NCBI GenBank assembly: GCA_031430915.1
Contig: JANPCL010000110.1
Span: 1,204-65,203, forward strand
Source: Hyphomicrobiales bacterium
GTDB lineage: Bacteria > Pseudomonadota > Alphaproteobacteria > Rhizobiales > Aestuariivirgaceae
DNA length: 64,000 nt
Direction: 5' to 3'
Made by a program: the position numbers and the translations under genes. Positions within the stretch are counted from its first letter, which is position 1, and every line of letters begins with the position of its first letter. The notes beneath the pieces were generated by a model. That model did no database searches, had not been told where the DNA came from, and worked only from the letters and a program-made list of their open reading frames with translations. This document shows positions 2,802-61,402 of the stretch, piece after piece.

Positions 2802-2803
2802 TG

Positions 2804-19849: not shown

Positions 19850-19874
19850 AACCTCCTCACGCCTTATAAGTTCC
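19850..19874 (-). promoter_or_regulatory. EcfG-like promoter, near match (GGAAC-N16-GGTT)
   Basis: Sense strand GGAAC-ttataaggcgtgagga-GGTT, ending 37 nt before ATG 19812. Confidence 0.3.
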
Positions 19875-19949
19875 ACATACTGACCGATACAGACTTTGAG
19901 GTGTTGCAAATAGTGTTGGTGTGGATCCAAAAACCTCATAATCCGGATT

Positions 19950-20444
19950 TCAACGCCGTTTGAAGGTAAACCTCGATGTGCTCCGATTTACACCAGCAAC
20001 CCTGTCATTCACGGTCTGGGCAAAGGTATTTGGCCCGATGCGCTCAAGAACCATCTGAGCGGAACGGTCATCATTAACCAGGCCACCCCACCTGATGGTC
20101 ATCACAAGGCGATTACCACGAAGGGTGCCATCCAGAGTGGCAGGACCCGTCTTGGAACCGGTATAGGTGCCTACATACCTGTTGCCGCCAGCATTTCTTA
20201 TTGAGAGCCCCAAGGCCTGCCGGAACACTGCTACTCCACAGCTGCCATTCATTGCAACCTTGGTCTCGCCTCCGCTAATTGCTACACGACAACTGGCTGA
20301 AATATCACCATACTTGGCAACATAAGCCTTGCCGGAGCCCGACCAGTTTCCCGAAAGATTGTCGAAGAACTTTGCAGGTGCTGCCTCGGCAGCGGACAAC
20401 ATCAAAGTTCCGCAGAATCCCATAGCCAAGGCAAAGTGGTTCAT
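19950..20444 (-). CDS. Secreted hypothetical protein
   Basis: 164 aa with an N-terminal signal peptide (..MLSAAEA) and beta-rich composition. No motif recognised. Confidence 0.55.
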   Translation of the reverse strand: MNHFALAMGFCGTLMLSAAEAAPAKFFDNLSGNWSGSGKAYVAKYGDISASCRVAISGGETKVAMNGSCGVAVFRQALGLSIRNAGGNRYVGTYTGSKTGPATLDGTLRGNRLVMTIRWGGLVNDDRSAQMVLERIGPNTFAQTVNDRVAGVNRSTSRFTFKRR

Positions 20445-20486
20445 AAGGTATATCTCTCTTCATTTATATTTTGAATGAACAGTTGA

Positions 20487-20511
20487 AACACCTCTGTGAT
20501 GGTTTTGTTCC
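20487..20511 (-). promoter_or_regulatory. EcfG-like promoter, near match (GGAAC-N16-TGTT)
   Basis: Sense strand GGAAC-aaaaccatcacagagg-TGTT, ending 42 nt before ATG 20444. Confidence 0.3.
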
Positions 20512-20839
20512 ACAGGCAGACGATAGGGCAGTCTGACGAACCACTAAAATATTTAATGGCCAGGCTGAGTCAGAAAAAGCAGTCGCTCATTTTATGAACG
20601 ATTCGACGCGACCCGCAAATTTTGTGGGTATGAAAGCTAATTACAAATCAAAACTGGACGGCCAGTTTCAATGACTAATGTCGTTAGTTATTATCCTGTC
20701 GCTCCGCAGAATTTATGCAATTCAAAAAGCGCCAAAATTGCCTATCGTTTCGGACAAGACCAACATGAAGATAATAAGATGAATACTGCATAGCCAATAT
20801 AGACGAATCCAAGCAAAGCAAAATAAAAGCACACATCAT

Positions 20840-20868
20840 AAATGAAAATGGGGCATTTTCCGCCCCAT
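20840..20868 (-). terminator. Rho-independent terminator downstream of the esterase remnant
   Basis: Stem ATGGGGC/GCCCCAT (20848-20854/20862-20868) followed on the minus strand by TTTTCATTTAT. Confidence 0.55.
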
Positions 20869-20919
20869 CTTTCCAGCTAAAATAAAAGGTTATTAACAGT
20901 TCAATTCTGAGCGTTCTTA

Positions 20920-21222
20920 TCACCCAAAAGCATGTTTCAATTCTTGCACAGCAAAGTTCTGTGCTTCATCTGCTACTTTGATTACAGCAGCTATTCCGAA
21001 GAACTCGTGGGTGACGCCCTCATAATTCTTGGACTTGATTTTCACATCTGCAGACTTGAATCGCTCAGCGAGTTGCTGTCCCTCTGACATCAGAGGATCA
21101 ATATCGTCTATAATAATGGTAACAGGTGGCAGCCCCTTCAAATTGGCATTTTCGACCAAGTTGAGCCGAGGGTCCTTCAAATCGGCTTCGCTTGTTATTT
21201 CCTGCTCGAAAAACCAAGCCAT
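20920..21222 (-). pseudogene. Alpha/beta-hydrolase (HSL-type esterase) C-terminal fragment
   Basis: Only the last ~100 aa are present (LPPVTIIIDDIDPL...YEGVTHEFF, carrying the Asp and His of the triad). The nucleophile region is missing. Confidence 0.5.
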
Positions 21223-21322
21223 ACCACTACTGTCCGGTTGTTGACGTTTTTTCCCTCGTAACTTACTGTGATAGTTGAGTAAAGTACCGTTTTTCAGGTG
21301 TCACCGACTTGAACTGCTGTTT

Positions 21323-21586
21323 CTAACAAATGAAGTTCAACATGCCGCCTTCAAAGATTCTGGAGGGTGAGGCAAAGCCTTTCTCCTCAAGCGCAGACCA
21401 CAACAACAGAATATTGATGCCGGAATAACTGCGGCGGGTCAGGCCATTGACGGGAAGTCCCAAAGGGCAAGACTGCTTGCTACTGGTCCAAGGCTGAACC
21501 CAAGGCACAATGCCGCGTTCCAGTTCGGCGATGATCTTGTCGGTGATCTCACGATAGATATTCTCTCTTCCAATCGCCTTCGACAT
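21323..21586 (-). pseudogene. ArdC-like antirestriction protein, N-terminal (DUF1738 ssDNA-binding) fragment
   Basis: IYREITDKIIAELERGIVPWVQPW....YSGINILLLW matches the ArdC N-domain. Similarity ends after ~75 aa and the metalloprotease domain is absent. Confidence 0.6.
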
Positions 21587-22155: not shown

Positions 22156-24645
22156 CTACTGGCGCAATGGCTTTGCAATCTTGAAAAAATCTCTCCAAGG
22201 ATTGGGTTCTCTCAGGATATTGCGCGTCAGATCGCCGCTGATTGTGAATGACTTTGGATGCATTCCTGTCTCCATCAATTGCCAGTCGATAGGCATGGAT
22301 ATGGCAGCCTCATCATTGGCGCGTAGTGAGAAAGGTGCCACAGTGGTTGAGCCGCGGCCGTTGCGCAGATAGTCAATGAAGACTCTGCCCTTTCGGGCTT
22401 TTTTAGCAAGGGTTGCGGTGTAACGGTCTGGCGATGATTGTGTGAGAGCGTGCGCGAAATCATGCGCGAAGGTTTTGACTTCGTCCCACCCAGCCTTGGG
22501 TTTCAGCGGAACCACAACGTGAAACCCCTTGCCACCTGATGTTTTGAGCAATGCCGGAAGGCCAAGATCGCTCAAGTGTTGTTTGACATCTAGGGCAGCG
22601 GCCTTCACCAAGTCAATGTCCAATCCTTCATCAGGGTCGAGATCAAACACGATTTGATCCGGTGTTTCGAGTGCAGTTATTGTGGAGCCCCAAATATGAA
22701 TTTCGACCACACCCAATTGCACCAGTGCTGCCACACCGTCAAAGTTCTTTACATAAAGGTGTTGCTGCTTGTCTTCGGGATCGTCCAATGTGAAAATGGC
22801 GGGATGCATGCCGGGCGAGGCGTGTTTCTGATAAAACTGTTGGCCGCCAATACCGTCGGGTGCCCGCAAAAGACTCAAAGGCCGGTTGATGATAAATGGC
22901 TCCATGCGCGGCCAAACCGATCCGTAGTAGTCAAGCAAATCTTGTTTTGAGATTTTGGCTTTCGGCCAGAGCAATTTACCCACATTGCTAAGTTGCACGC
23001 TAGTGTCGGGCATGGGCAGTCGCTTAGGCTTTTTCTGTATCACCGTCGTTTTTTTCCGTGATGATGCGACTGGAACTTCCTTGACAACGTCATCTGCTGG
23101 CTTGTCTTCACGCAAGCCCTGAAACGAAGCTTGGCGCAAAATTCCTCCATCTGTCCAAGCCCGAAACTCCACTTCAGCCACGAATTCTGGCCTGACCCAC
23201 ACCGCAGTCTTCTCAACGCCGTCCATTCCTCTAATGGCTGGAGCTTTGGTCTTGAGTTTGTCAAGCCGACGTTTGATGTCGTCGCTACTTTTCACTGAAA
23301 AGCCGGTGCCAACCCGCCCACCATATTTGAGTTTGCCGTTATCATGATAGGCCACCAGAATTGAGCGCAGGCCGCGTCCCGTTGCTGCGGACGTGAGGTA
23401 GCCGATGACGACAAATTCCTGACGCTGGATGCATTTTGATTTGATCCAATCCAATGTGCGTCCACTGTGATACGGAGCGTCAACGCGTTTTGAGATCACG
23501 CCTTCAAGGCCCATGCGGCAAGCATGCGACAGCATCACCTCTCCTGTTTCAGCAAAGTCTTCGCTGTAGCGCACAACCGCGTGTTCAGGCTGCCGACTTA
23601 ATAGTTCCTCGAGACGCAATTTGCGTTTTGCCAGCGGTTTGCCAAGCCATGAAGAATTGTTCAGTTGTAGGAGGTCGAAGGCGTAGAACACCATCCTGTC
23701 ACTGCGGCCCTCCGAAAGATCGGCCTGCAGCAGTGAGAAGGAGGCAACGCCCTTTGGCGAAAGCACCACCAGTTCCCCGTCAATGATGGCTTGTTTGCAG
23801 TCGAGGCTCAGAAGTTCGCGCGGCACTGCATCACCAAAACGCGTCGTCCAATCGAGCCCTGATCGTGTCAGCAGTTTCACTTTCCCCGCTGCGACGTGGG
23901 CCTGAATGCGGTAACCGTCAAACTTGACCTCATGAATCCAGTCGTTGCCGGAAGGAGGAGTAGCTTTCAGCGTGGCAAGTGCTGGCGAGATGAACTGCGA
24001 AGATGGGGCAACCCTCGACTTCGGGGACACTCCCGCGGTCTTAGCGATAGCCTTGGAGCTTTTGCCAGCTCTGATATCGTCGATGGTAAGGCCAGACTTT
24101 ACCGATTGTTGTGCCGCCTCCAGAATGTCCGCACTCGCGGTGGCGAATTCATCCTCGGCCTTGATCAGCAACCAGTTGTCGTGTTTTTCCTTTGCACGGG
24201 GTTTCAAACGCACCAAATGCCAGCCACCTCCGAGTTTCTCTCCAGCAAGTGCAAAACTGAGATGGCCCTTCTTCATGCTCGCGACAGCATCACCGTCCGG
24301 TGCCCACGTTCCACGGTCCCAAACGATCGCTGCGCCAGCACCATAAGAGCCTTTCGGGATTGTGCCTTCAAAATCTGCATAATCAAGCGGATGGTCTTCG
24401 ACATGGACAGCGAGCCGTTTGTCGGTAGGATCAAGGCTTGGTCCGCGGGTGACAGCCCAGCACCACAGCACACCGTCATGCTCCAGACGCAAATCATAAT
24501 GTAGCCGGCGGGCATCGTGCTTATGGATGACGAACAGACCTCCGGTAGACTTGGATTTTCGCGATCCACCAAGTGCTTTTCCAGAAGGTTCGCTGGTCTT
24601 CTTGAAATCCCGCTTCAACCGGTAATGCTTTAACCCAGTCGACAT
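22156..24645 (-). CDS. ligD: Multidomain ATP-dependent DNA ligase D (phosphoesterase-ligase-polymerase order)
   Basis: 829 aa. The N-terminal PE domain has FVIHKHDARRLHYDLRLE, the central ligase has the KxDG motif (EVKFDGYR), and the C-terminus is a primase-polymerase domain. Confidence 0.9.
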   Translation of the reverse strand: MSTGLKHYRLKRDFKKTSEPSGKALGGSRKSKSTGGLFVIHKHDARRLHYDLRLEHDGVLWCWAVTRGPSLDPTDKRLAVHVEDHPLDYADFEGTIPKGSYGAGAAIVWDRGTWAPDGDAVASMKKGHLSFALAGEKLGGGWHLVRLKPRAKEKHDNWLLIKAEDEFATASADILEAAQQSVKSGLTIDDIRAGKSSKAIAKTAGVSPKSRVAPSSQFISPALATLKATPPSGNDWIHEVKFDGYRIQAHVAAGKVKLLTRSGLDWTTRFGDAVPRELLSLDCKQAIIDGELVVLSPKGVASFSLLQADLSEGRSDRMVFYAFDLLQLNNSSWLGKPLAKRKLRLEELLSRQPEHAVVRYSEDFAETGEVMLSHACRMGLEGVISKRVDAPYHSGRTLDWIKSKCIQRQEFVVIGYLTSAATGRGLRSILVAYHDNGKLKYGGRVGTGFSVKSSDDIKRRLDKLKTKAPAIRGMDGVEKTAVWVRPEFVAEVEFRAWTDGGILRQASFQGLREDKPADDVVKEVPVASSRKKTTVIQKKPKRLPMPDTSVQLSNVGKLLWPKAKISKQDLLDYYGSVWPRMEPFIINRPLSLLRAPDGIGGQQFYQKHASPGMHPAIFTLDDPEDKQQHLYVKNFDGVAALVQLGVVEIHIWGSTITALETPDQIVFDLDPDEGLDIDLVKAAALDVKQHLSDLGLPALLKTSGGKGFHVVVPLKPKAGWDEVKTFAHDFAHALTQSSPDRYTATLAKKARKGRVFIDYLRNGRGSTTVAPFSLRANDEAAISMPIDWQLMETGMHPKSFTISGDLTRNILREPNPWRDFFKIAKPLRQ

Positions 24646-25540: not shown

Positions 25541-25758
25541 CAGGCATTTCCTCCGACACCGTGCCGATTCATTGCAAAATCTTCGGCATAGTTCAGATCC
25601 TCGTGCGTAATCACCGGCACAGGATCGCTGACCAGTGCCTGCAGAGTTTCCGGCTCCAACACGCCATGAGATATGCAGGTTTCAAACGCAAATCGCGTTT
25701 CCCGCTCGGAACGAAGGAGAGCCGATAATGCCAAAATCAATCGATCACGGTGGTCCAT
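25540..25758 (-). CDS. Hypothetical small protein translationally coupled to ku
   Basis: Its TGA shares one base with the ku ATG (TGATG at 25542-25538). The start is placed at Met13 (25758) because the longest-ORF ATG (25794) sits only 3 nt from the promoter -10. No motif recognised. Confidence 0.4.
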   Translation of the reverse strand: MDHRDRLILALSALLRSERETRFAFETCISHGVLEPETLQALVSDPVPVITHEDLNYAEDFAMNRHGVGGNA

Positions 25759-25797: not shown

Positions 25798-25822
25798 AAC
25801 GAACGTGACTGACGAAGGTTCC
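25798..25822 (-). promoter_or_regulatory. EcfG-type general-stress promoter (perfect GGAAC-N16-CGTT)
   Basis: Sense strand GGAAC-cttcgtcagtcacgtt-CGTT, directly upstream of the small-ORF/ku/ligD operon. Confidence 0.6.
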
Positions 25823-29257: not shown

Positions 29258-29374
29258 ATGTGGGGAAAGACCGGTTTGGAAGGGGAACTTGCGGGGATAT
29301 GGCGCGTTTCATTTACAGGTGCCGGTCAGACGCCACGAGCCTCTATGAGGTTAACGCTCAAAGGAGCAGAAATC

Positions 29375-31618: not shown

Positions 31619-31643
31619 AACGTGTCTTCAGCCGTCTTGTTCC
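31619..31643 (-). promoter_or_regulatory. EcfG-type general-stress promoter (perfect GGAAC-N16-CGTT)
   Basis: Sense strand GGAAC-aagacggctgaagaca-CGTT, ending 38 nt before ATG 31580. Confidence 0.6.
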
Positions 31644-32869: not shown

Positions 32870-32895
32870 GGAACCTTTCCAACCGCCCCTTCGTT
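32870..32895 (+). promoter_or_regulatory. EcfG-type general-stress promoter (perfect GGAAC-N17-CGTT)
   Basis: GGAAC-ctttccaaccgcccctt-CGTT, ending 27 nt before ATG 32923. This is the same spacing and similar sequence as the promoter at 33605. Confidence 0.6.
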
Positions 32896-33604: not shown

Positions 33605-33630
33605 GGAACCTTTCGGACCTTACTTTCGTT
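33605..33630 (+). promoter_or_regulatory. EcfG-type general-stress promoter (perfect GGAAC-N17-CGTT)
   Basis: GGAAC-ctttcggaccttacttt-CGTT, ending 27 nt before ATG 33658. Confidence 0.6.
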
Positions 33631-38251: not shown

Positions 38252-38276
38252 AAAGCAATTGAAGCCAGATCGTTCC
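38252..38276 (-). promoter_or_regulatory. EcfG-like promoter, near match (GGAAC-N16-CTTT)
   Basis: Sense strand GGAAC-gatctggcttcaattg-CTTT, ending 42 nt before ATG 38209. Confidence 0.35.
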
Positions 38277-40012: not shown

Positions 40013-40037
40013 AACGTCAAAATCGTCTCAGGGTTCC
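40013..40037 (-). promoter_or_regulatory. EcfG-type general-stress promoter (perfect GGAAC-N16-CGTT)
   Basis: Sense strand GGAAC-cctgagacgattttga-CGTT, ending 56 nt before ATG 39956. Confidence 0.6.
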
Positions 40038-40953: not shown

Positions 40954-40978
40954 AACAAAATTGCGCACCGAAGGTTCC
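40954..40978 (-). promoter_or_regulatory. EcfG-like promoter, near match (GGAAC-N16-TGTT)
   Basis: Sense strand GGAAC-cttcggtgcgcaattt-TGTT, ending 71 nt before ATG 40882. Confidence 0.25.
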
Positions 40979-41008: not shown

Positions 41009-41033
41009 GGAACATTTTCTATTCTGAACCGTT
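41009..41033 (+). promoter_or_regulatory. EcfG-type general-stress promoter (perfect GGAAC-N16-CGTT)
   Basis: GGAAC-attttctattctgaac-CGTT, ending 35 nt before ATG 41069. Confidence 0.6.
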
Positions 41034-41580: not shown

Positions 41581-41961
41581 TCAATCGGCGTGAACCGCGG
41601 CAACGGCATGGATTGCTTTCTCAAGTTCACGGATGCCGTAAGGTTTTGCCAGCACGTATTCGTTGCGGTAATTTTCGGTCAGGCCATGGGAACCATAGCC
41701 CGTTGCAAACATAAATAAAGCGCTTCGCTTGCGCAAGACATCGGCAACCGGGAAAGACAAAGCGCCCGATAGATTGAGGTCAAGGATGGCAAGATCGATG
41801 TCGCTGTTTGCTGCCAGAGTGAGCGCCTGTGGAATGCGAGCTGCGACTGCCACCACCTCATGGCCTAGCTCCAGTAACATATCTTCCAGATTCATCGCGA
41901 GAAGCATTTCATCTTCTACAATAAGAATGCGCCTGGCTCTAGTCTTGAAAATTGACATCAA
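41581..41961 (-). CDS. Single-domain response regulator (CheY-like receiver)
   Basis: 126 aa with ILIVEDE, a phospho-acceptor context (DLAILDLNL) and a conserved Lys region (VLAKPY). It overlaps the upstream kinase by 23 nt. Confidence 0.85.
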   Translation of the reverse strand: MMSIFKTRARRILIVEDEMLLAMNLEDMLLELGHEVVAVAARIPQALTLAANSDIDLAILDLNLSGALSFPVADVLRKRSALFMFATGYGSHGLTENYRNEYVLAKPYGIRELEKAIHAVAAVHAD

Positions 41962-44900
41962 TGATTTCGTCTTTCAGATGCCCTGGCGGCAGGGGGGCAT
42001 TTATCGTACAAATGACGCCAGTCGGTTCATAGGAAACACTTACTTCACCCGTAAGTTCCATAGCCAAGGCTTTCTGAATAAGGCGTGAACCAAAACCTTT
42101 TCGCGTTGGCGTCACCACATTTGGCCCGCCACTTTCAGTCCAGGTCAATTGCAGTCTGGCATTGCTGATATCGCCATGGATGTGCCAGGCAACATTCACA
42201 AATCCTTCCTGTACTGACAATGCGCCATATTTTGCGGCATTGGTGCACAGCTCATGCAGCGCCAAACTAAAGGTAACAGCCAAAGCGGGTTGCAGCGGCA
42301 CATAAGCCCCTTCCACGCTAAAGCGGTTTTGTCCGCCATTATGCGGTTCAATGGTCGCTTTGACAACGCTGGCCAGATCAGTTCCTGACCAATTGCCGTG
42401 CATCAGCAAGTCATGGGCACGTGACAGTGCCATAAGCCGTGCTGAAAAGGCTTCATTGGCGGTTTTGACAGACACCGCACCCGTCAGGGTTTGCGAGGCT
42501 ATGGCACTGACGATGGCCAAGGTATTCTTGACCCGATGATTGAGTTCACCCACGAGTATTTCGCGATGGGCTTCTGAGCGGCGACGTTGCGTGATATCAC
42601 GCGCAATAATCGAAGCGCCTTCGATCTTACCGTTTGCTGCGATCAATGGCGAAATCGTGGCCGATACCCACACAGTGCTTCCATCCTTTCGCTGCCGTTC
42701 TGCTTCGATGTGCACATTCTCCCCGCCCCGCTCAAATTGATCAAAAATTTGAGATTTCACCGAGTTCTGTCCCGGATTCAGCAACACTGAGGATTGCTTG
42801 TAAAGAATTTCTTCCGCAGTATAACCAAACATGCGCTCAGCACCTGCATTCCAGCTGGTGAAGTTGCCTTCAGCGTCCATGCTCGCGATCATGTCATCTG
42901 ACGACCCGACGAGGGCCGTCAGCTTCAAGCCAACTTCTGCCGCCAGTTTCTTTTCAGTGATATCCTGAAAGATGATGGCCAGACGATTTTTCTTTTCGCT
43001 ATTTAATGGAAACTCATAAAGCTCCAGAAACTTGTTCCTGCTGTCAAGGCTATGTTGATGACGGATCGGTTGTCCGCTTGTAAGGACCTGATCATGAATG
43101 CTGTACCAGTCTTCTGGCTCCAGAGGGGACGTTTCCCGGATGGTTTTGCCTTTCACGCCGCCATGACCCGCATGCCTTTCGAAGGCGGGATTCACGTCGA
43201 TGTAGCGAAAGTCAATCGGCGTCGTTGCAGTCGCTTCAATTTTTTCCAGAACGCAGAAGCCTTCATCAATTGAATTGAACAGCTCCCGGTATTGCGTTTC
43301 GCTCTGGCGCAAAGCATATTCGGCGTTCTTACGATCTGTGATGTCTTCGATGGCAATCAAAATGAGACTGGGGCGGCCGTTGCCTCTGACCAGTTTACGG
43401 CCGTTGACCAGCATGCATAGGTGACCCACCGAATCAAACTGGTGTTCAATTTCAATATCATTGAAGTGCTGATTCTCTCTGATGACCAAGTCCAGCAGCT
43501 CCTGGAGCTTGGGAAAATTCCAATCACCTTTTGCCAGATCAAAAACCAACTGGCCGATGGAATCTCTCTCCGTCATCTCAAACATGGTTTGGAACGACGT
43601 ATTGGTTGAAACCACATGCAGGCTTTCATCCAACACCAACAACGGCTGCCGGATTGTCTCAACGATAGCTTGCGCATAAATGCGGGCTTCGTCGCTGGCG
43701 TCAGTGGCACCCTTGTGGGCCGTCACATCAATGAAAGTGATCACCACGCCCGCGATATGATTGTCCAGGGTGCGATAAGGCAACATGCGCCGCAGAAACC
43801 AACGGCCATCGGCAGCTTTGACCTCGGCCTCCACCACAATCAGCGTGCGCAATACTTTTTCAGCATCTGGCAACAGTTTCTCATCATCAAATTTGCGGGC
43901 AAAATGACTTATCGGCCGACCAACATCAGACACAATGAAGTCAAACAGTTCACGCGTGCCCGGTGAGAACCATTTGACGCAAAGTTTTGCATCCACAAAC
44001 AACGTGGCAGTTTCGGTTCCAGCCAACAGGTTGTTCAAATCATTGGCACTGTCTTCCAGCTCGCGCACTTTGTGCTGAAGTTGGCTGTTGACGGTGTGAA
44101 GCTCTTCATTGAACGACTGCATTTCCTCCTTTGAGGTTTCGAGTTCCTCATTGGTGGATTGCAGCTCCTCGTTCATCGAGGTGGCTTCTTCGTTGGATGC
44201 TTTCAGCTCTTCGTTGGTTGTTTCCAGATGTTCAATGGTGTTTTGCAGTTCATTGCGGAGTGCCTTCAACTCGTCCTGCAATGTGGTGTCAGACACCAGA
44301 TTATTTGAGGCCACTTTGTTTGCCCCGGAACTATCCACCACTTCCGGCGCAAAGCTGATCAGAATATGGCCATGCCCAGTGCTGCCTGCGGCCAGCGGCG
44401 AGACGGTGACCTGAACCGGGGAAAGCGTGGTTCCGTGTTTGATATTCACGCTGACTTGAATGTTCCGGTTTTCAGCAACCGCAGTGCGCACCGTTGCACG
44501 CAATTTGCCGGTCAGTCCGTCGCGCGTCATCAGGAACAGATCTTTGGACGGTTCCCCCGTGGGTTGCTCCAGATAATGACCAGTCGATCCGTGAAAATAC
44601 ACCACGCGACAATTGCGGTCGATCAGCACTGCGGCAGGTGCGAAATGTTCGAGCAATGCGCGGCGCGCAATCTCGCCTGCCGGGGCCGGCAGACCAGTTG
44701 TCAATTGAGGTGCCGGTCCCTCATTGGTCTTTGAAAGATGCGCTATGCCGCGCAACACCGGAAAATTGATGATTTCAAGCCGTGCGGGCCCGGCCCTCCG
44801 GAACATGCGCCATTTTTTGGAAATAATCTCGAACATGGCTTCATGGCGGCCAAGCGTTTCAGTGTTGCCAAGCAGCAGGGTCCCACCTTCTTCAAGTGAA

Positions 44901-47589: not shown

Positions 47590-47614
47590 AATGCGGCATA
47601 GCCCGGAAAGTTCC
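47590..47614 (-). promoter_or_regulatory. EcfG-like promoter, near match (GGAAC-N16-CATT)
   Basis: Sense strand GGAAC-tttccgggctatgccg-CATT, ending 45 nt before ATG 47544 and just downstream of the terminator at 47655-47686. Confidence 0.3.
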
Positions 47615-47686: not shown

Positions 47687-47804
47687 AAGTCGGGGCAGGG
47701 ATCTTCAGCGGTTCTCGCGGGGGGGCAAAACGCTAAAGACTATTCCATAACGCTCGAAGTCAAATTCTGTTCCCTTGCTTTGATTCGCACATTGCAGACT
47801 CAAG

Positions 47805-48161: not shown

Positions 48162-48187
48162 AACGCCATGCTGCTTCAAAAAGTTCC
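48162..48187 (-). promoter_or_regulatory. EcfG-type general-stress promoter (perfect GGAAC-N17-CGTT)
   Basis: Sense strand GGAAC-tttttgaagcagcatgg-CGTT, ending 48 nt before ATG 48113. Confidence 0.6.
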
Positions 48188-48385
48188 CAGCTCATTGCGC
48201 TGCTGGTTTTGGGCTCGGAACATTCCCTCTCTTTTGACGTTCAAGTCATGCAGTCCGCGTGTCAACCGAACGCGACGGTATGAAGAACAAGGCGGTTTTT
48301 CCGGTTTCCCGCTTTGGCCAACGCAACGGCAGCCGAGCTTCTATCCCGCCCGCGGAATGTTTAATTTACACACTGACCGTGACGC

Positions 48386-49778: not shown

Positions 49779-49803
49779 AACGCCGTTCCAGCCCTGTTGT
49801 TCC
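49779..49803 (-). promoter_or_regulatory. EcfG-type general-stress promoter (perfect GGAAC-N16-CGTT)
   Basis: Sense strand GGAAC-aacagggctggaacgg-CGTT, ending 37 nt before ATG 49741. Confidence 0.6.
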
Positions 49804-49830: not shown

Positions 49831-50088
49831 TCAAAGATAAATCGGCAGGGCCTGCCAGACAATTGCGATTGATGATATCAGACTCCCCCTGCGCACAATG
49901 GTCGTCTGCCATGAACCCGCGTTAACGCTGGTGATGAACAAATACATATTGGCACAAAGCCCAAGGCTTGTCAGAATTGGCACTATAATTTTGAGTGTCG
50001 AAGGAGCAAATTCCGCGGATAAATATACCCCCCCGAAATGCATGACCCACACAAGCAGCGGGGCCAAAAGATACGCCCAGGTTTTCAT
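49831..50088 (-). CDS. Small membrane protein, candidate extra oxidase subunit
   Basis: 85 aa with three hydrophobic helices. Its ATG lies 1 nt after the CoxI/III stop, which suggests coupling. Confidence 0.5.
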
Positions 50089-50089
50089 G

Positions 50090-53930: not shown

Positions 53931-53965
53931 ACAGATTTCCTTCCAAAAACGTATTAGACGGAAGG

Positions 53966-53990
53966 AACGGAACTCGCTCGAAATTGTTCC
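53966..53990 (-). promoter_or_regulatory. EcfG-type general-stress promoter (perfect GGAAC-N16-CGTT)
   Basis: Sense strand GGAAC-aatttcgagcgagttc-CGTT, ending 35 nt before ATG 53930 of the oxidase operon. Confidence 0.6.
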
Positions 53991-53995
53991 ACCCC

Positions 53996-55997: not shown

Positions 55998-58106
55998 CTA
56001 GGCGAGACGACGAACACCGTGTTCGCGCGCGTAAAATCTTTTTGCAGCGGCCGTTGTAAAGTCCTTGCCAAGATCGGTCACACCTTCGTCAGCTACGACA
56101 CCTGCTTTCGTCAGAAGTGATTGTGCTTCGGGCATCGCACCGATAGCTTTCAAATGACCAAAGGCGTCCATGACAAACTGCACCGCCGCACCCTCTTTGC
56201 ACAGAGCTTGGGCCGCCGCTTCCGTCAACACCAGAGCGATGGCGTCCACGGTACAGGACGGAGTACCCGCCAATTGTCCATCTGCATCCATGATACCTTC
56301 GGTCGTTTTGATGCCTTTCAACTTTGGAGCAATCAACACCATTTTTCCGCCTTCACGCTCAATCGCGGTTTTCAAAACTTTGATAATTTTTGCATCTGAT
56401 CCATCATCAAACAACACACCTACTTTCCGTCCCTTCAGCGTCATCATTTGACTTTTTACAATCGAAAGTGCATCGGACACTTTCATATCTAGAACTGGTG
56501 CAGCGGACTCAATACGCTTTGGCAAATCAATGCCAAGGCCTTTCGCAACTCGCTTGGCGAGCCCGTCATCAACATTGCGAAGCTGGCCCAATACCCGCTC
56601 TTGAACATGGGCAAGTTTGACTTTCGACAATTCAAATACGAGCGCAGATGCCATGTGGGCCTGCTCAATTTCAGTTTGGGATTTATAAAACATGCGCGGT
56701 TGGCTGAAGTGATCGGCAAATGATTCAGGCCTAAGCCGCAGTTTGTGACGTGGATCGTTACGCTCAGCGTTCTCAGCGTACGTTACAAAACGTTGCTGCA
56801 CCTCACGCGGTCCCGGCGGTTCACCAGCCTCAGCCAAGCTGTTTGGCTCGTAATTTGCACGGCCTTTTGGCACTTGCGTTTGCATCATGCCGTCTCGTTG
56901 AAAGTTCATCACAGGACACTTTGCAGCATTGATCGGAATCTGATGAAAGTTCGTGGTTCCCAGACGCGACTTCTGCGTATCCAGGTAACTGAACAAGCGG
57001 CCTTGCAGCAGCGGATCGTTGCTGAAATCGATACCAGGCACAATGTTAGTTGGCATGAATGCCACTTGTTCTGTTTCCGCAAAAAAATTATCGGGATTGC
57101 GGTTGAGTGTCATTGTGCCCACAAGTTGGATTGGCAACACCTCTTCCGGGATGAGTTTTGTGGCGTCTAAAACGTCATAGGCAAGTGTCGCTGCGAATTT
57201 TTCGTCGAACACCTGTACGCCCAAGTCCCACTGTGGAAAATCACCTGCATCAATGGCCTCATATAAGTCACGACGATGGAAATCATTGTCTGCTCCCGCC
57301 AATTTCACAGCTTCGTCCCAGACTGTTGATTGCAGGCCCAAACGAGGCTTCCAATGGAATTTCACAAAGCTGGGTCGGCCTTCGGCATTCACAAATCTGA
57401 AGGTATGCACACCAAAACCTTCCATCATGCGCAAGCTGCGCGGAATGGTGCGATCTGACATCGCCCACATGATCATGTGCATCGATTCTGGTGTGAATGA
57501 GATAAAATCCCAGAATGTGTCATGGGCGCTTGCGGCCTGCGGATAGCCCTTATCCGCCTCCATCTTCACAGCATGAACAAGGTCTGGAAACTTAATTGCG
57601 TCTTGAATGAAAAAAACCGGAATGTTGTTACCAACAAGATCCCAATTGCCTTCTTCTGTATAGAATTTTGTGGCAAAACCTCGCACGTCGCGCGGTGTAT
57701 CAACTGATCCCGCACCACCGGCTACGGTGGAAAAACGCACAAATACCGGACACTCTCTTCCCTTCTTTTGAAGAATGTGCGCGCGTGTAAGTCCAGGAAT
57801 AGCATGTGTGCACACAAAGGTACCGTGAGCACCTGAGCCTCGAGCATGCACAATACGCTCTGGAATGCGCTCATGGTCAAAGTGAAATATTTTCTCGCGA
57901 AGAATGAAATCTTCCAGCAGGATTGGTCCGCGTTCACCGGCCTTCAAACTATTCTGGTTGTCACTGACAGCATGACCGAAATTGTCCGTCAGCGATGGTG
58001 CTGGCGATTGCTGGTGCGTTTCCCCGCCGTTTCCCGACGATTGAATGATTGGCTCTGAACCATCGCTCATCTTCATGATTTCACTCTCAAAAAAACCAAA
58101 CTTCAA
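55998..58106 (-). CDS. katE: Large-subunit monofunctional catalase (HPII type)
   Basis: 702 aa. The catalase core ([27 protein letters not shown], NxxxxPxxxFxxRxxSY region) is followed by a flavodoxin-like C-terminal domain. The start may be an internal Met (MKMSDG). Confidence 0.9.
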
Positions 58107-58166: not shown

Positions 58167-58403
58167 TCACACACCCATGCCCACGGCGTAAGCGAGCAGA
58201 GGACCAAGCATCATTGTGGAAGCCAGCACAGCTGCCGCAATGTCCAAACCTTCGAAGTAGGAAGAGTTTGAATGGTCAGAAACATATCTCGGTTGCAAGA
58301 TCGAGCTTGGTCGGTTGGGCTGCAAAATTTGCTCGTTCTCAAAAATATTGTTCTCGAATCGTGAGTGCTTTTGATTTTCAAATTCAGTTCCAGGGACGTC
58401 CAT
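58167..58403 (-). CDS. Hypothetical 78-aa protein with a C-terminal TM helix
   Basis: The start moves to MDVPGTEF (AAGGA RBS) because the promoter lies within the longer ORF. It sits directly upstream of katE. Confidence 0.5.
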   Translation of the reverse strand: MDVPGTEFENQKHSRFENNIFENEQILQPNRPSSILQPRYVSDHSNSSYFEGLDIAAAVLASTMMLGPLLAYAVGMGV

Positions 58404-58445: not shown

Positions 58446-58470
58446 AACGTCTTCGTTTGAGAAAAGTTCC
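58446..58470 (-). promoter_or_regulatory. EcfG-type general-stress promoter (perfect GGAAC-N16-CGTT)
   Basis: Sense strand GGAAC-ttttctcaaacgaaga-CGTT, ending 42 nt before ATG 58403. Confidence 0.6.
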
Positions 58471-58703
58471 TCGCCTCCGACGATTGAATGGGATACAGGT
58501 CCTGCTGTTAAATGTACGTGAGTGAACTGCCTTTGAAGTGTTTCTCTTGGACACCGGAACCTATCCGTAGATGAGCACGTTGAAGGGTCACGACGTAGAT
58601 TTCTCGGAAATATCATTCACTTTAAACTGGAGACCCAAACCACATGCGTAAACTCATTTCTGCAGTGAGAGCACGGGGGGGCGAAATTCTTGACGGAGGT
58701 GCG

Positions 58704-59207: not shown

Positions 59208-59255
59208 AACGACAGGTTTGCATTGAGATTCCAATTCATTAGTGAGGAGGCCAGT

Positions 59256-59280
59256 GGAACATTTTCTGTCCCCAATCGTT
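59256..59280 (+). promoter_or_regulatory. EcfG-type general-stress promoter (perfect GGAAC-N16-CGTT)
   Basis: GGAAC-attttctgtccccaat-CGTT, ending 31 nt before ATG 59312. Confidence 0.6.
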
Positions 59281-59311
59281 GCAGTTCACACCCGTGGAAA
59301 GGACAACGATC

Positions 59312-59569
59312 ATGAAAAAAACTGAGAAGAAATTGACGCAACCTGAAGCGTTGGCGCAATTTGGTAAAAGCGCACGAAGCGACAGCAAAAAAGTTCCGCA
59401 GCCAGGTTTGACTGCTGATCAGGAAACAGCGCCGGTGCCAACAGACCTAAAACTTAAACAAAGTGCGGCGACCAAAGTATTGCGCGAAGGCGTGTTCCAC
59501 CGTGACGAAGGCTCTCATGAGGAGATCGCCAAATTACCTGATCGCATCACCAAAGATCGCAGCCGGTGA
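59312..59569 (+). CDS. Hydrophilic hypothetical protein
   Basis: 85 aa, Lys/Glu/Pro-rich. The start is placed at MKKTEKK downstream of the promoter. Its stop overlaps the GTG of the next gene (GTGA). Confidence 0.5.
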   Translation: MKKTEKKLTQPEALAQFGKSARSDSKKVPQPGLTADQETAPVPTDLKLKQSAATKVLREGVFHRDEGSHEEIAKLPDRITKDRSR

Positions 59570-60779
59570 TTACTGAAAAGCGCGATTTAAGAACAGGTAG
59601 GCCGCTTTGGCTGTCTAAGCCTGTGCCGTGGCTTAAACACTTTACACGGCTGGTCCCGTTGAAGCCAGATGTTGTGGTTATTGGTACTGGCGTATCTGGT
59701 GCGCTGATGGCCGATGCATGTTGAATGGAGGTTTTACAGTTCTTGCGTTGGACCGCCGTTCGCCCACGTCAGGGTCCACGCCCGCGAGTACGGCCTTGAT
59801 ACAATCAGAACTCGACATGCCCTTGACGGAACTGCAACGGAAAATTGGCAAGTCAGACGCTGCACGGACATGGCTTAGTTCGGCGCAAGCTGTTCAATCA
59901 CTGGCTGATCGCATCTCGGATATGAATATCACGTGTAACTTTGTTCCACGCGCCACGCTCTACTTGCCAGGAAATATTCTTGATGTTTCCGCGTTAAAGC
60001 TGGAAACTCACGAGAGCGTCAAAATTGCCTTTCGTTCGCGCTTTACATCCAAGGACGAACTTCACACCTTGAGTGGATTGTCGCAACCTGCCGCAATTTA
60101 CACACAAGGAATTGGCGAACTGGACTCCGTGAAATTTGTAGCCGGACTTTGGAGAAGTTTTATAAATCGCGGCGGCACAATGGTCTCGGACTGTGAAATC
60201 GCAGAGATTGATGAGACACGCAACTGGGTAAAACTTAAAACCAACGACGGTCGTACAATTCAGTGCAATCATGCCGTCTTCTGCACGGGTTATGAACGTC
60301 TCACGTTTTTTAAGCCAAAGGGATTCAAAGTTATTTCAACGTGGGTCTTGGCGACCAAGCCAAAAAAGAAAGTTTTGTGGCCTTCAAAAAGTTTAATCTG
60401 GCAGGCATCGGATCCATACCTCTATTTGCGCACGACACACGATGGACGCGTTATTGTTGGCGGCGAGGACGAACCATTTTCAGACGATGAAAAGCGCGAT
60501 GCAATGATTGGAACAAAAGTCCAAACGATCGCGCGGAAAGCCAAACGCCTTTTCCCCAATATTGATTTCACCCCCGACTTTCAATGGGCGGGGAGTTTTG
60601 GTGAAAGCCCAAATGGCTTACCCGCGATTGGCCCCATACCAGGGTACAAACGTAGCTACACCGTTATGGGTTTTGGTGGAAACGGCATAACATTCAGCAT
60701 GCTCGCGGCACAATTGGTGTCGCGGAACATTCAAGGAATTTCTGATGCTGATGACGAGCTTTTCAAACCAATGGATTAG
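59566..60779 (+). pseudogene. FAD-dependent oxidoreductase (DAO family), frameshifted
   Basis: The dinucleotide-binding motif DVVVIGTGVSGALMADA is in the frame starting at GTG 59566 and stops at 59722-59724. The rest of the enzyme (GFTVLALDRR...) continues in another frame from about 59718. Confidence 0.6.
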
Positions 60780-61264
60780 AGCGCAATTTTTCCCTGTTGC
60801 TTGTCAGACACATCAGGCGTCTTACCGCTGAGATAAGCCTTGGCTGCCTCGAACACGTAACTTATGCCCTGCATCCCTGAGTTATCCCAGTATTCTGCAT
60901 TAACAGGTGAAATTTTCAGCATTCGAATTGAACAATCCGTTTTTCCTTCTGGAAACCATACCTACCAAGCTTCGGACTACAGCCTTTCAACAAGTGCAGG
61001 TTCTTTCACAACAACAGCAGTTCCATTCAGTGAGACAAAAGTCTTGCTGTTTTGAAAGATCAGAATGACGTCCGAGTCGTTTTGAATTTCTTTGACTTTG
61101 GCCGACGGTGCGGTAGTAACAAAATAGCGTTCACCTGATTTTGTAATTTCTGCAACACCCATGGGACGTGCATTGATGGACCCGTTCGCCACATATGTGA
61201 TCAACATTGCTGTGTCAAAGCCTTCCAGCAATGCGTGCAATTGATTTTTTGAGGAATGGGTCAC
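60776..61264 (-). pseudogene. Pyridoxamine-5'-phosphate-oxidase-like general stress protein (GSP26-type), two in-frame TAG codons
   Basis: One frame reads ...ALVERL*SEAW*VWFPEGKTD...AEYWDNSG...GKIAL, with TAG at 60977-60979 and 60962-60964. Read through, it gives a normal ~162-codon family member. Confidence 0.7.
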
Positions 61265-61303
61265 GGTTATTCTCCTCTTTAGGCGTTGCTATTCGCATCA
61301 ATA

Positions 61304-61328
61304 GACGTTCTTTTGAGCGAATTGTTCC
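61304..61328 (-). promoter_or_regulatory. EcfG-like promoter, near match (GGAAC-N16-CGTC)
   Basis: Sense strand GGAAC-aattcgctcaaaagaa-CGTC, ending 39 nt before ATG 61264. Confidence 0.35.
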
Positions 61329-61377
61329 TCACATTGCGGCCCCGCAGGCGATAGCAGTCAAGGGCCGGTAAAACTAC

Positions 61378-61402
61378 GGAACCAATTCTCTTCCCATACG
61401 TT
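61378..61402 (+). promoter_or_regulatory. EcfG-type general-stress promoter (perfect GGAAC-N16-CGTT)
   Basis: GGAAC-caattctcttcccata-CGTT, ending 37 nt before ATG 61440. Confidence 0.6.

What the first reader, a model, noticed from the sequence alone, without database searches (positions are those of the whole stretch)
19850..61402. At least 12 perfect and 7 near-perfect EcfG-type promoter motifs mark a dense general-stress regulon island
GGAAC-N16/17-CGTT occurs as a perfect match at 12 sites.
- Minus strand: 25798-25822, 31619-31643, 40013-40037, 48162-48187, 49779-49803, 53966-53990, 58446-58470.
- Plus strand: 32870-32895, 33605-33630, 41009-41033, 59256-59280, 61378-61402.

Every copy is intergenic and points at the adjacent gene. 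Eleven of the 12 end 27-56 nt before a plausible start, and several of them sit inside over-long ORF extensions and so relocate the start. The copy at 25798-25822 is only 3 nt from the first ATG and fits that range only if the ORF starts at Met13.

With equal base frequencies, 4^-9 x 64 kb x 2 strands x 2 spacers predicts about one chance match.

Seven further copies keep GGAAC and N16 but have one -10 mismatch: 19850, 20487, 25828, 38252, 40954, 47590 and 61304.

This motif is the established consensus for alphaproteobacterial EcfG/RpoE2/SigT sigma factors. No phyR, nepR or ecfG gene lies in the window.
Basis: partly seen in the sequence, partly recalled or inferred. Interest (0 to 1): 0.75.

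Follow-up and report, generated by a model that had tools for sequence, protein, structure and literature searches.

The report
Dense cluster of EcfG stress promoters
About 42 kb of an uncultured alphaproteobacterium carries roughly two dozen promoters of the well-known general-stress sigma factor EcfG in front of classic stress genes and one small RNA; the motif and regulon are textbook, and only the packing is unusual.

Summary
GGAAC-N16/17-CGTT occurs 17 times in the window. Shuffles give about 1.1, and 360 same-composition decoy motifs give a mean of 1.3 and at most 6. Only spacers of 16 (13 sites) and 17 (4 sites) are enriched.

All 17 sites are non-coding, although 85% of the window is coding. 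Fourteen end 27-66 nt before a start codon. One ends 8 nt before the Rfam sRNA Atu_At1, whose homologue in Agrobacterium has a mapped start at the expected distance. All seven near-perfect sites exist and sit 33-71 nt before starts. As a class, though, one-mismatch sites are barely enriched (19 against 11.6 expected).

The downstream genes are classic general-stress genes: Ku-LigD, catalase, a GSP26-like protein, DUF892, a YflT-like protein, CHRD, DUF1428 and glyoxalases. A cytochrome oxidase operon is also among them.

No sigma factor or PhyR gene was found. The region does encode two HWE histidine kinases and a FATGUY-type response regulator.

Site density is 2.7 per 10 kb, against 0.5 in comparison alphaproteobacterial loci and about 1 promoter per 62 kb in S. 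meliloti. A related cluster exists in Cypionkella.

Verdict: genuine EcfG-type promoters of a known kind, unusually clustered. Mobility of the region is unproven.

The parts
19850..19874 (-). Near-perfect site (-10 GGTT), 37 nt before ATG 19812 of a secreted DUF6600 protein (18364-19812)
   Evidence: An independent gene call gives 482 aa, i.e. the same start.
20487..20511 (-). Near-perfect site (-10 TGTT), 42 nt before ATG 20444 of a secreted 164-aa protein (19950-20444)
   Evidence: Gene call of 164 aa.
25798..25822 (-). Perfect site driving a 72-aa ORF (25540-25758), Ku (24662-25540) and LigD (22156-24645)
   Evidence: Gene call of 72 aa, i.e. the Met13 start 39 nt downstream. EcfG control of ku/ligD is documented in PMC6379672.
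25828..25852 (+). Near-perfect site (-10 AGTT), back to back with the previous one (5 nt apart), 33 nt before ATG 25886 of an alpha/beta hydrolase, followed by a glyoxalase (26738-27133)
   Evidence: Gene call of 274 aa.
29284..29308 (+).
   Evidence: The Pfam domain begins at residue 125 of the over-long 256-aa ORF.
31619..31643 (-). Perfect site, 38 nt before a 118-aa protein of unknown family (31224-31580)
32870..32895 (+). Perfect site followed by a truncated copy of the DUF1428 5' end, then a glyoxalase (33033-33455). It is a duplicate of the 33605 promoter region.
   Evidence: 88% identity over 34 nt downstream of the two sites.
33605..33630 (+). Perfect site, 27 nt before DUF1428 (33658-34008), followed by DUF899 (34088-34822) and a glyoxalase (34902-35381)
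38252..38276 (-). Near-perfect site (-10 CTTT), 42 nt before a 24-aa hydrophobic ORF (38135-38209), followed by an 81-aa ORF (37877-38122)
40013..40037 (-). Perfect site, 56 nt before a secreted 149-aa protein (39507-39956), followed by a YflT/DUF1269-like protein (38888-39544) and DUF892 (38349-38849)
   Evidence: Gene call of 149 aa.
40954..40978 (-). Near-perfect site (-10 TGTT), 71 nt before an alpha/beta hydrolase (40061-40882)
41009..41033 (+). Perfect site, 35 nt before a CHRD-domain protein (41069-41500)
   Evidence: The Cypionkella homologue has a perfect site 44 nt upstream.
42035..42059 (-). It lies inside the 3' end of the kinase gene, 76 nt before the response regulator gene.
   Evidence: Homologous regulators have perfect sites 75 nt upstream in L009 and 27 nt upstream in L045.
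41581..41958 (-). Single-domain response regulator with FMFATGYG (FATGUY type)
   Evidence: Pfam Response_reg. Sequence. Motif definition in PMC5964349.
41939..46606 (-). Large CheB-CheR-PAS-HWE histidine kinase. The true start probably lies downstream of 46444.
   Evidence: Split into two genes in the MAG.
47590..47614 (-). Near-perfect site (-10 CATT), 45 nt before an FMN reductase-like gene (46444-47544)
   Evidence: Gene call of 366 aa.
47749..47773 (-). Perfect site between the stop codon of the 102-aa gene and a terminator at 47687-47662. It is either a chance match in a 3' untranslated region or the promoter of a structured RNA of about 90 nt.
   Evidence: Fold z-score -6.35. No homologue among plasmids.
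48162..48187 (-). Perfect site, 48 nt before an acidic 102-aa protein (47805-48113)
   Evidence: Gene call of 102 aa.
48217..48241 (+).
48250..48356 (+). sRNA of Rfam family Atu_At1 (RF02496)
   Evidence: 93.5 bits against a gathering score of 60, full length
49779..49803 (-). Perfect site, 37 nt before ATG 49741 of a secreted glucose/sorbosone dehydrogenase-like protein (48386-49741)
   Evidence: The motif is present upstream of 14 alphaproteobacterial homologues. One gene caller prefers the 508-aa start.
53966..53990 (-). Perfect site, 35 nt before cytochrome c (53553-53930), COX2-cytochrome c (52624-53556) and COX1 (50090-52627). With 53964-53988 (+) it forms a GGAAC-N17-GTTCC palindrome facing a dihaem cytochrome c gene (53996-54727).
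   Evidence: A bidirectional palindromic site is described in bioRxiv 10.1101/641647.
58446..58470 (-). Perfect site, 42 nt before a 78-aa ORF (58167-58403), followed by catalase (55998-58076), CtaG (55232-55978) and cytochrome b561 (54567-55232)
   Evidence: Gene call of 78 aa.
58556..58581 (+).
   Evidence: Gene call of 43 aa.
59256..59280 (+). Perfect site, 31 nt before an 85-aa ORF (59312-59569), followed by a FAD oxidoreductase (59718-60779)
   Evidence: Gene call of 85 aa.
61304..61328 (-). Near-perfect site (-10 CGTC), 39 nt before a truncated pyridoxamine-phosphate-oxidase-like (GSP26-type) gene (60977-61264)
61378..61402 (+). Perfect site, 37 nt before a 25-aa hydrophobic ORF (61440-61517) that has a strong ribosome-binding site
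61614..62618 (-). PAS-HWE histidine kinase
   Evidence: Gene call of 334 aa.
12423..12447 (+). Orphan perfect site in a 476-nt gap between two minus-strand genes. It has no convincing ORF or structured RNA downstream.

Best explanation
**What it is.** The sites are promoters read by RNA polymerase carrying the alphaproteobacterial general-stress sigma factor EcfG (ECF15 group; called RpoE2, SigT or RpoE1 in different species). GGAAC is the -35 box and CGTT is the -10 box. Transcription should start about 5-11 nt after the TT.

**How it works (established model, inferred here).** Under stress, HWE/HisKA2 histidine kinases phosphorylate PhyR, directly or through FATGUY response regulators. Phosphorylated PhyR captures the anti-sigma factor NepR, and this frees EcfG. 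EcfG is encoded outside the window.

**What is switched on.** EcfG would then switch on about 24 transcription units packed into window positions 19.8-61.5 kb. I estimate these cover roughly 45 genes. They include:
- Ku-LigD end joining
- a large catalase with CtaG and cytochrome b561
- a cytochrome c oxidase operon next to a periplasmic dehydrogenase
- glyoxalases, DUF1428, DUF899, DUF892, YflT-like, CHRD, MgtC and GSP26-like proteins
- several tiny membrane peptides
- the sRNA Atu_At1

The region also encodes two HWE kinases and a FATGUY response regulator that could feed signals into the same switch.

**Shown:** the motif statistics, the position and orientation of the sites, the gene families, and the conservation of the motif upstream of homologues.

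**Inferred:** EcfG dependence, the transcription start sites, the operon extents and the role of the kinases.
For: **Statistics**
- 17 perfect matches against about 1 expected. Same-composition decoy motifs reach at most 6.
- Only spacers of 16 and 17 are enriched.

**Position and context**
- All 17 sites are non-coding on a map that is 85% coding.
- Fourteen lie 27-66 nt before a start codon.
- Where available, gene calls made without the motif use the motif-implied start for 13 of 15 downstream genes.
- The sites are not copies of a repeat, apart from one duplicated pair.

**Agreement with known EcfG promoters**
- G never follows GGAAC, and a T-rich stretch follows. RpoE2 promoters in S. meliloti behave the same way.
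- The consensus is published.
- Target families match known regulons: ku/ligD, and Ku and GSP26 in S. melonis.

**Taxon-specific conservation**
- 14 alphaproteobacterial homologues of the GSDH-like gene carry the motif upstream. None of 26 gamma- or betaproteobacterial homologues does.
- Homologues of CHRD and the response regulator in L045 and L009 have perfect sites upstream.

**The sRNA**
- The site at 48217 ends 8 nt before the Rfam Atu_At1 match.
- Ten homologues keep GGAAC (TGAAC in one) with a -10 ending in TT, while the spacers are unrelated.
- In Agrobacterium, At1 peaks at high optical density. Its dRNA-seq start lies 11 nt after GGAAC-N18-TT.

**Host**
- It is alphaproteobacterial. 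The evidence is the HWE kinases, a Rhizobiales sRNA family, and best matches to Mesorhizobium, Pararhizobium and Shinella.
Against: - There is no expression or transcription-start data for this organism.
- ecfG, nepR and phyR are not in the window, and the rest of the genome could not be searched.
- One-mismatch sites are barely enriched as a class (19 against 11.6), so some of the seven could be chance.
- Two perfect sites lack a clear target: 12423 and 47749.
- My gene starts were partly refined after I had seen the motif. One gene caller prefers a 508-aa GSDH-like ORF that would swallow the 49779 site, and a few tblastn alignments extend upstream of the shorter start.
- The Agrobacterium C58 plasmid region that holds At1, ku and ligD has no strict-consensus site in 40 kb. 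Strict matches are therefore not universal at such genes.
Confidence: 0.88

Rival explanations
1. The sites are genuine ECF-type promoters, but a different sigma factor reads them. Candidates are an EcfG paralogue (the SigU or EcfG2 type) or an accessory ECF sigma encoded elsewhere on the same replicon. In that case the cluster would be a separately controlled regulon, not part of the core general stress response.
For: Many ECF sigma factors share an AAC-containing -35 box. Alphaproteobacteria often carry several EcfG-like paralogues (abstracts). A Roseinatronobacter plasmid carries a sigma-70-family gene about 1 kb from its Atu_At1 copy.
Against: No sigma factor gene was found in the 64 kb. 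The motif is the exact EcfG consensus, including the spacer length and the absence of G after GGAAC. The targets are those of the canonical regulon. The surveyed papers did not establish whether EcfG paralogues read a different motif, so this would mostly change which protein acts and not the mechanism.
Confidence: 0.08
2. The excess comes from duplication of a few promoter-bearing segments or from a dispersed repeat, not from independent selection for the motif.
For: The 32870 and 33605 sites are a duplicated promoter plus the 5' end of the coding sequence.
Against: An all-against-all comparison of the sites with 60-nt flanks finds no other similarity, apart from the trivially overlapping divergent pairs. 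The spacers are unrelated.
Confidence: 0.02
3. The matches are chance or compositional artefacts, or are binding sites for a palindrome-recognising transcription factor and not promoters.
For: GGAAC and GTTCC are near-palindromic, and one site is a full GGAAC-N17-GTTCC palindrome.
Against: No shuffle reached 17 and the maximum was 4. Decoy motifs reach at most 6. The spacer is strictly 16-17. The orientation is consistently towards a start codon at promoter distance. Only one of the 17 sites is palindromic.
Confidence: 0.02

Closest known systems
RpoE2 (EcfG) promoters and regulon of Sinorhizobium meliloti
   Same: The consensus is the same: GGAAC-N15/16-gcgTTt, or GGAAC-N18-19-TT placed 5-11 nt before the start. 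GGAACG is avoided in both. Shared target types include ku/ligD and non-coding RNAs.
   Different: S. meliloti has about 108 such transcription units in what I take to be a genome of roughly 6.7 Mb, i.e. about one per 62 kb (count). Here about 24 lie within 42 kb. This organism has no experimental data.
EcfG regulon of Sphingomonas melonis Fr1
   Same: Ku, catalase and general stress protein 26 are in the regulon. Ku and GSP26 have good motifs 30-34 nt before their coding sequences. That strain also has a plasmid-borne HWE kinase (PakD) with a single-domain regulator (PkrD).
   Different: The S. melonis motif is looser (GGAAC-N17-20-GTT). Its catalase motif is poor and distant. The paper does not describe the targets as one dense cluster.
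Palindromic bidirectional EcfG site of Erythrobacter litoralis (between nepR-ecfG and gsrP)
   Same: A GGAAC-N17-GTTCC palindrome lies between divergent genes, here at 53964-53990.
   Different: Here it lies between two cytochrome c genes, not regulator genes. The plus-strand half has a TGTT -10 box and ends only 7 nt before the called ATG, so use in both directions is doubtful.
sRNA At1 of Agrobacterium tumefaciens C58 (Rfam RF02496)
   Same: It is a full-length family member, and a GGAAC box sits upstream in both. At1 is most abundant at high optical density.
   Different: In C58 the RNA lies directly upstream of ligD and its -10 box is degenerate (TCTT). Here it is free-standing, converges on the GSDH-like gene, and has a perfect consensus.
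[quoted passage not shown]
   Same: It is an accessory region loaded with stress-related cargo, reported in Sphingomonadales and Rhizobiales.
   Different: ICE3 has complete integration and conjugation modules. Its cargo is different (universal stress proteins, efflux pumps, cytochrome bd) and no EcfG promoter array is described. The window has only gene fragments of mobile origin.
HWE kinase with FATGUY response regulator pairs (Sma0114 and its associated HWE kinase; MrrA; SdrG)
   Same: A PAS-HWE kinase is followed by a single-domain regulator carrying FxFATGY.
   Different: The kinase here is fused to CheB- and CheR-like domains. The regulator has L where the motif has P. Its function is untested.

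Membership tests
EcfG (ECF15)-dependent promoter | -35 GGAAC and -10 CGTT (at minimum TT) separated by 16-17 nt | tested here: met
   17 exact matches. Only spacers of 16 and 17 are enriched.
EcfG (ECF15)-dependent promoter | Transcription start 5-11 nt downstream of the -10 box | tested here: inconclusive
   There is no transcriptome for this organism. The only proxy is the sRNA: the Rfam 5' end lies 8 nt after CGTT, and the homologous Agrobacterium RNA has a dRNA-seq start 11 nt after GGAAC-N18-TT.
EcfG (ECF15)-dependent promoter | Non-coding position, oriented towards a gene at promoter distance | tested here: met
   17 of 17 sites are non-coding. 14 lie 27-66 nt before a start and one lies before an sRNA. 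Where available, independent gene calls use the motif-implied start for 13 of 15 downstream genes.
EcfG (ECF15)-dependent promoter | The host is an alphaproteobacterium encoding the EcfG-NepR-PhyR switch | not testable with these tools
   An alphaproteobacterial origin is supported. The regulators are not in the window, and the genome (MAG GCA_031364575.1) could not be searched.
EcfG (ECF15)-dependent promoter | Expression depends on EcfG and is induced by stress or stationary phase | not testable with these tools
   This needs an experiment.
Mobile genomic island or ICE | Integrase or relaxase, conjugation or replication genes, and tRNA or direct-repeat borders | tested here: not met
   No tRNA. 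No integrase, rep or type IV secretion domains in 70 scanned ORFs. Only fragments are present: ArdC N-terminus 21323-21586 and HipA 10564-10884, plus an IS3 end. A MAG contig breaks at about 10.3 kb. Direct repeats at the borders were not searched.
Rfam RF02496 Atu_At1 sRNA | Covariance-model score above the gathering threshold over the full model | tested here: met
   93.5 bits against 60, model positions 1-108
FATGUY single-domain response regulator | Receiver domain only, PFxFATG[G/Y] motif, partnered with an HWE/HisKA2 kinase | tested here: met
   125 aa with a Response_reg domain only. The sequence LFMFATGY matches 7 of the 8 motif positions (motif definition). The gene overlaps the 3' end of an HWE kinase gene.

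The most novel reading that the evidence does not exclude
The 42-kb region is a transferable, pre-wired general-stress module. Its roughly 24 promoters use a sigma-factor specificity conserved across Alphaproteobacteria, so the cargo would be stress-inducible in any new alphaproteobacterial host. The cargo comprises DNA end joining, catalase, an alternative respiratory branch, detoxification enzymes, small peptides and an sRNA. The module also brings its own sensors (two HWE kinases and a FATGUY regulator) that could plug into the host PhyR-NepR-EcfG switch. The related cluster in Cypionkella (Rhodobacterales) would be a second copy of such a module.
Probability: 0.25. Interest if true: 0.6.

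Novelty: new member of a known kind. Interest (0 to 1): 0.4.

Why it matters
- **Annotation of an uncultured bacterium.** The promoter map predicts from sequence alone which roughly 45 genes respond to general stress. It supports corrected start codons for at least eight genes. It also flags several tiny ORFs, and possibly one new sRNA, that gene callers miss.
- **The sRNA family.** The sRNA result suggests that the widespread Atu_At1 family belongs to the general stress response. This is directly testable in Agrobacterium or Sinorhizobium.
- **The clustering.** If the clustering reflects transfer as a unit, it would show how a conserved sigma-factor specificity lets stress regulons spread as ready-to-use blocks. 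Otherwise this is a compact but conventional piece of a known regulon.

Tried and rejected
**Searches for a close relative or the source**
- The source replicon or a close relative among plasmids: only weak gene-level matches.
- Species-representative genomes, queried with the GSDH-like protein: best 73% amino-acid identity.
- JGI metagenomes, queried with the catalase: best 72%. No close relative was available for promoter footprinting.
- The exact proteins occur only on short contigs of MAG GCA_031364575.1 and on Logan assemblies of runs in the SRR202171xx-SRR202172xx range. The first look-up failed because the caller used a longer start.

**Unknown proteins and candidate RNAs**
- NCBIfam found nothing for ten unknown small proteins.
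- A relaxed tblastn of nine small ORFs against all fetched loci (L081 and L082, same-source contigs, set aside) gave one uninformative hit.
- The candidate RNA at 47650-47742 has no homologue among plasmids.
- The region after the orphan site at 12423 shows no significant structure (z = -1.3) and no plus-strand terminator.
- A permissive Rfam scan added no further RNA families.

**Literature and baselines**
- A literature search for the Rfam name of the sRNA found nothing, and a search pairing CHRD with the stress response also found nothing.
- The S. meliloti supplementary table and the Sauviac 2007 paper were not available. I therefore could not measure how clustered RpoE2 promoters are in a reference genome.
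- The Mariluticola plasmid that looked dense in a 6-kb view has only 4 sites in 50 kb and is an ordinary repABC plasmid.

Full report
**1. The observation**

A pattern search for GGAAC-N16/17-CGTT finds 17 exact matches on the two strands of the window. Dinucleotide-preserving shuffles give a mean of 1.12 and a maximum of 4. A second-order Markov simulation gives 0.96.

Five were missed: 12423 (+), 29284 (+), 47749 (-), 48217 (+) and 58556 (+).

Two controls show that base composition does not explain the excess.
- Only spacers of 16 (13 sites) and 17 (4 sites) are enriched. Spacers of 13-15 and 18-20 give zero.
- Among 360 decoy motifs made by permuting the letters of both boxes, the mean count is 1.3. 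The runner-up, with 6 matches, is a one-base-shifted copy of the real motif.

The seven near-perfect sites also exist at the stated coordinates. However, 19 sites in the window have one -10 mismatch, against 11.6 +/- 3.6 expected. That class alone is therefore not convincing, and the seven have to be judged by their context.

**2. Position and context**

I built a gene map from ORFs, Pfam domains and public gene calls. About 85% of the window is coding, yet all 17 perfect sites lie wholly in non-coding sequence.

| Perfect sites | Context |
|---|---|
| 14 | End 27-66 nt before a start codon on the same strand |
| 48217 | Ends 8 nt before an sRNA |
| 32870 | Sits before a truncated copy of the DUF1428 5' end and 137 nt before a glyoxalase gene |
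| 47749 | Lies between a stop codon and a terminator |
| 12423 | Orphan, with no convincing target |

The seven near-perfect sites lie 33-71 nt before plausible starts. An eighth, at 42035, lies 76 nt before a response regulator gene. Homologues of that regulator in two other bacteria carry perfect sites at 75 and 27 nt.

I refined some starts after seeing the motif, so independent evidence matters. Gene calls for the same proteins in a public MAG and in Logan assemblies were made without reference to the motif. Where they are available, they give these products:
- 274, 482, 164, 366, 102, 149, 143, 78, 85, 43, 125 and 95 aa

These calls match the motif-implied start for 13 of the 15 downstream genes with a call. 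The two exceptions are the GSDH-like gene, called at 508 aa, and the response regulator, called at 108 aa.

The sites are not copies of a repeat. With 60-nt flanks, the only similarity is the 32870/33605 duplication.

**3. Features that were not part of the search pattern**

None of the 17 sites has G after GGAAC, and the next three positions are T in 11, 10 and 9 of the 17 sites. In S. meliloti, RpoE2 promoters show a positional peak for GGAACA, GGAACC and GGAACT but not for GGAACG (PMC4914127).

The published consensus is GGAAC-N15/16-gcgTTt. The strictly conserved core is GGAAC-N18-19-TT, placed 5-11 nt before the start (PMC3738161).

**4. What lies downstream**

Pfam assigns the downstream genes as follows:
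- Ku and LigD
- a large catalase followed by CtaG and cytochrome b561
- a cytochrome c, COX2 and COX1 operon
- a glucose/sorbosone-dehydrogenase-like periplasmic protein
- several glyoxalase-fold proteins
- DUF1428, DUF899, DUF892, a YflT/DUF1269-like protein, CHRD and MgtC
- an FMN reductase-like protein
- alpha/beta hydrolases
- a truncated pyridoxamine-phosphate-oxidase-like protein (the 'general stress protein 26' type)
- DUF6600

About ten small proteins have no family in Pfam or NCBIfam. They include hydrophobic peptides of 24, 25 and 43 aa.

Control of ku and ligD by RpoE2 has been shown experimentally. Putative EcfG boxes are reported before at least one ku gene in about 90% of ku-containing alphaproteobacteria (PMC6379672). 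In the EcfG regulon table for S. melonis, Ku and GSP26 have good motifs at similar distances. Catalase is also in that table, but its motif is poor and distant (PMC6599016).

**5. Comparative evidence**

*The GSDH-like gene.* Among 80 loci encoding homologues, the strict motif lies within 300 nt upstream in 14 alphaproteobacterial loci. It is absent upstream in all 26 gamma- and betaproteobacterial loci.

*The sRNA.*
- The RNA at 48250-48356 is a full-length member of Rfam family Atu_At1 (93.5 bits against a gathering score of 60).
- Window and nine homologues from nine other genera (Rhizobiaceae, Devosiaceae, Phyllobacteriaceae, Brucellaceae and one Paracoccaceae) were compared. A GGAAC (TGAAC in one) followed by a -10 box ending in TT is kept at the same distance, while the spacer is unrelated.
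- In Agrobacterium C58 this RNA (At1) was validated by dRNA-seq and Northern blot, and is most abundant at high optical density (PMC3384568).
- Its mapped start lies 11 nt after GGAAC-N18-TT. By homology the window RNA should start near 48248, about 7 nt after CGTT.

This is the only experimentally anchored start site among the sites, and it holds only by homology.

On plasmids, the neighbours of these sRNA copies are typical stress genes: PRC-barrel, CsbD, ferritin-like, topoisomerase IB and otsAB.

**6. How dense is the cluster?**

| Sequence set | Strict sites | Density |
|---|---|---|
| This window (64 kb) | 17 | 2.7 per 10 kb, up to 10 in 21.3 kb |
| Alphaproteobacterial loci around a stress gene (979 kb) | 49 | 0.50 per 10 kb |
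| Gamma- and betaproteobacterial loci (511 kb) | 5 | 0.10 per 10 kb |
| Mixed metagenome loci around catalases (935 kb) | 19 | 0.20 per 10 kb |

S. meliloti has about 108 RpoE2-type transcription units. Taking its genome as roughly 6.7 Mb, which is my own figure, that is about one per 62 kb. The clustering here is therefore some 25-fold or more above a typical genome average.

It is not unique. A Cypionkella contig (L045) has 8 strict sites in 21 kb. That contig also encodes homologues of the following:
- the GSDH-like protein (69%)
- catalase (56%)
- FMN reductase (76%)
- CHRD (61%)
- the CheB-CheR-PAS-HWE kinase (38%)
- a candidate single-domain response regulator ORF (no tblastn match to the window regulator)
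- an Atu_At1 sRNA with a perfect site upstream

**7. Regulators**

No ECF sigma factor or PhyR was found in 70 scanned ORFs, nor by tblastn with a plasmid ECF sigma factor. An orphan nepR was not excluded.

The cluster is not purely cargo, however. It encodes:
- a PAS-HWE kinase (61614-62618)
- a very large CheB-CheR-PAS-HWE kinase (41939-46606)
- a single-domain response regulator with the sequence FMFATGYG

This matches the FATGUY motif of SdrG, MrrA and Sma0114, regulators that link HWE/HisKA2 kinases to PhyR (PMC5964349). S. melonis likewise has a plasmid-borne kinase and regulator pair, PakD and PkrD.

**8. Architecture**

Five pairs of sites are back to back and divergent, with these gaps between the -35 boxes:
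- 25798/25828: 5 nt
- 48162/48217: 29 nt
- 40954/41009: 30 nt
- 61304/61378: 49 nt
- 58446/58556: 85 nt

At 53964-53990 a GGAAC-N17-GTTCC palindrome lies between divergent cytochrome c genes. The same arrangement is proposed to act in both directions in E. litoralis (bioRxiv 10.1101/641647). Here the plus-strand half ends only 7 nt before the called ATG, so its use is doubtful.

**9. Is it a mobile island?**

I found no tRNA, integrase, replication or conjugation genes. What is present is:
- fragments of ArdC, HipA and an alpha/beta hydrolase
- a truncated GSP26-like gene
- a duplicated DUF1428 5' end
- an IS3-family element at the right edge (ALIL pseudoknot and an HTH_21 ORF)

The MAG contig that carries the sugar-catabolism genes at positions 1-10.3 kb ends exactly there. 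These features suggest an accessory, rearranged region but do not show mobility. A published 'stress-response ICE' in Sphingopyxis has different cargo, and no EcfG promoter array is described for it.

**10. Verdict**

These are EcfG-type promoters of a known kind, in front of a mostly conventional general-stress gene set.

What goes beyond the textbook:
- the packing: about 24 promoters in 42 kb, with a related cluster in a member of a different order
- the inference that the Atu_At1 sRNA family is EcfG-controlled
- the presence of stress-signalling kinases and a FATGUY regulator within the cluster

None of this is a new mechanism. EcfG dependence, the start sites and the operon extents remain inferred.

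Noticed in passing
window 48250-48356 (+); L083 19993-20100; L045 16237-16343 (-): The Atu_At1 sRNA family appears to have a conserved EcfG-type promoter in the window and nine homologues from nine other genera. In Agrobacterium C58 it lies directly upstream of ligD, whereas here it is free-standing. The papers I could search did not link it to the general stress response.
   Followed up: yes
window 47650-47773 (-): A perfect motif lies in the 3' untranslated region of the 102-aa gene. It is followed by a two-hairpin RNA of about 90 nt that ends in a strong terminator (fold z-score -6.35). It could be a second stress-induced sRNA. No homologue was found among plasmids.
   Followed up: partly
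window 12423-12447 (+): An orphan perfect motif lies in a 476-nt gap between two minus-strand genes (rhodanese and PAP2). No credible ORF, terminator or structured RNA follows it.
   Followed up: partly
window 53964-53990: A GGAAC-N17-GTTCC palindrome lies between divergent cytochrome c genes. The same arrangement is proposed to be a bidirectional EcfG site in Erythrobacter litoralis.
   Followed up: partly
window 48386-55978; L001, L002, L003, L007, L029: The GSDH-like periplasmic dehydrogenase is linked to a COX2-cytochrome c, COX1 and CtaG gene set. A dihaem cytochrome c joins them in all these loci except Microvirga (L029). The linkage also occurs in Mesorhizobium and Pararhizobium. It suggests a stress-induced periplasmic oxidation branch feeding a dedicated oxidase.
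   Followed up: no
L045 (Cypionkella sp. TWP1-2-1b2, NZ_JAFCTX010000019.1): A related stress cluster in a member of the Rhodobacterales has 8 strict motifs in 21 kb. It encodes homologues of five window proteins and the same sRNA.
   Followed up: partly
window 41939-46606 (-); L173 2704-7043: The CheB-CheR-PAS-HWE kinase is one 1555-codon ORF in the window. In MAG GCA_031364575.1 it is called as two overlapping genes (349 and 1113 aa). This points to a frameshift or an assembly difference.
   Followed up: no
window 63228-64000: An IS3-family element lies at the right edge. It has the ALIL frameshifting pseudoknot (117 bits) and an HTH_21 ORF that runs off the window.
   Followed up: no
window 10564-10884, 20920-21586, 60977-61264, 32923-32990: Several gene remnants are present: a HipA C-terminal fragment, an Abhydrolase_3 fragment, an ArdC N-terminal fragment, a truncated PNPOx-like gene and a truncated DUF1428 copy. 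They point to past rearrangement or mobile DNA.
   Followed up: partly
window 16059-16772 (-): A secreted 237-aa protein with no Pfam match contains two internal repeats of about 70 aa (VCxVTFFERSQV...LLPRSVAxRRD...NRIFxYGS...TCNYLD).
   Followed up: no
window 1-10307; L092: The left 10 kb is a sugar or polyol catabolic cluster: two FGGY kinases, Fe-ADH, a SorC regulator, E1 alpha and beta, a lipoyl protein, a class II aldolase and GlpD. Its G+C content is higher (53-55%). The MAG contig that carries it ends at the boundary with the rest of the window.
   Followed up: partly
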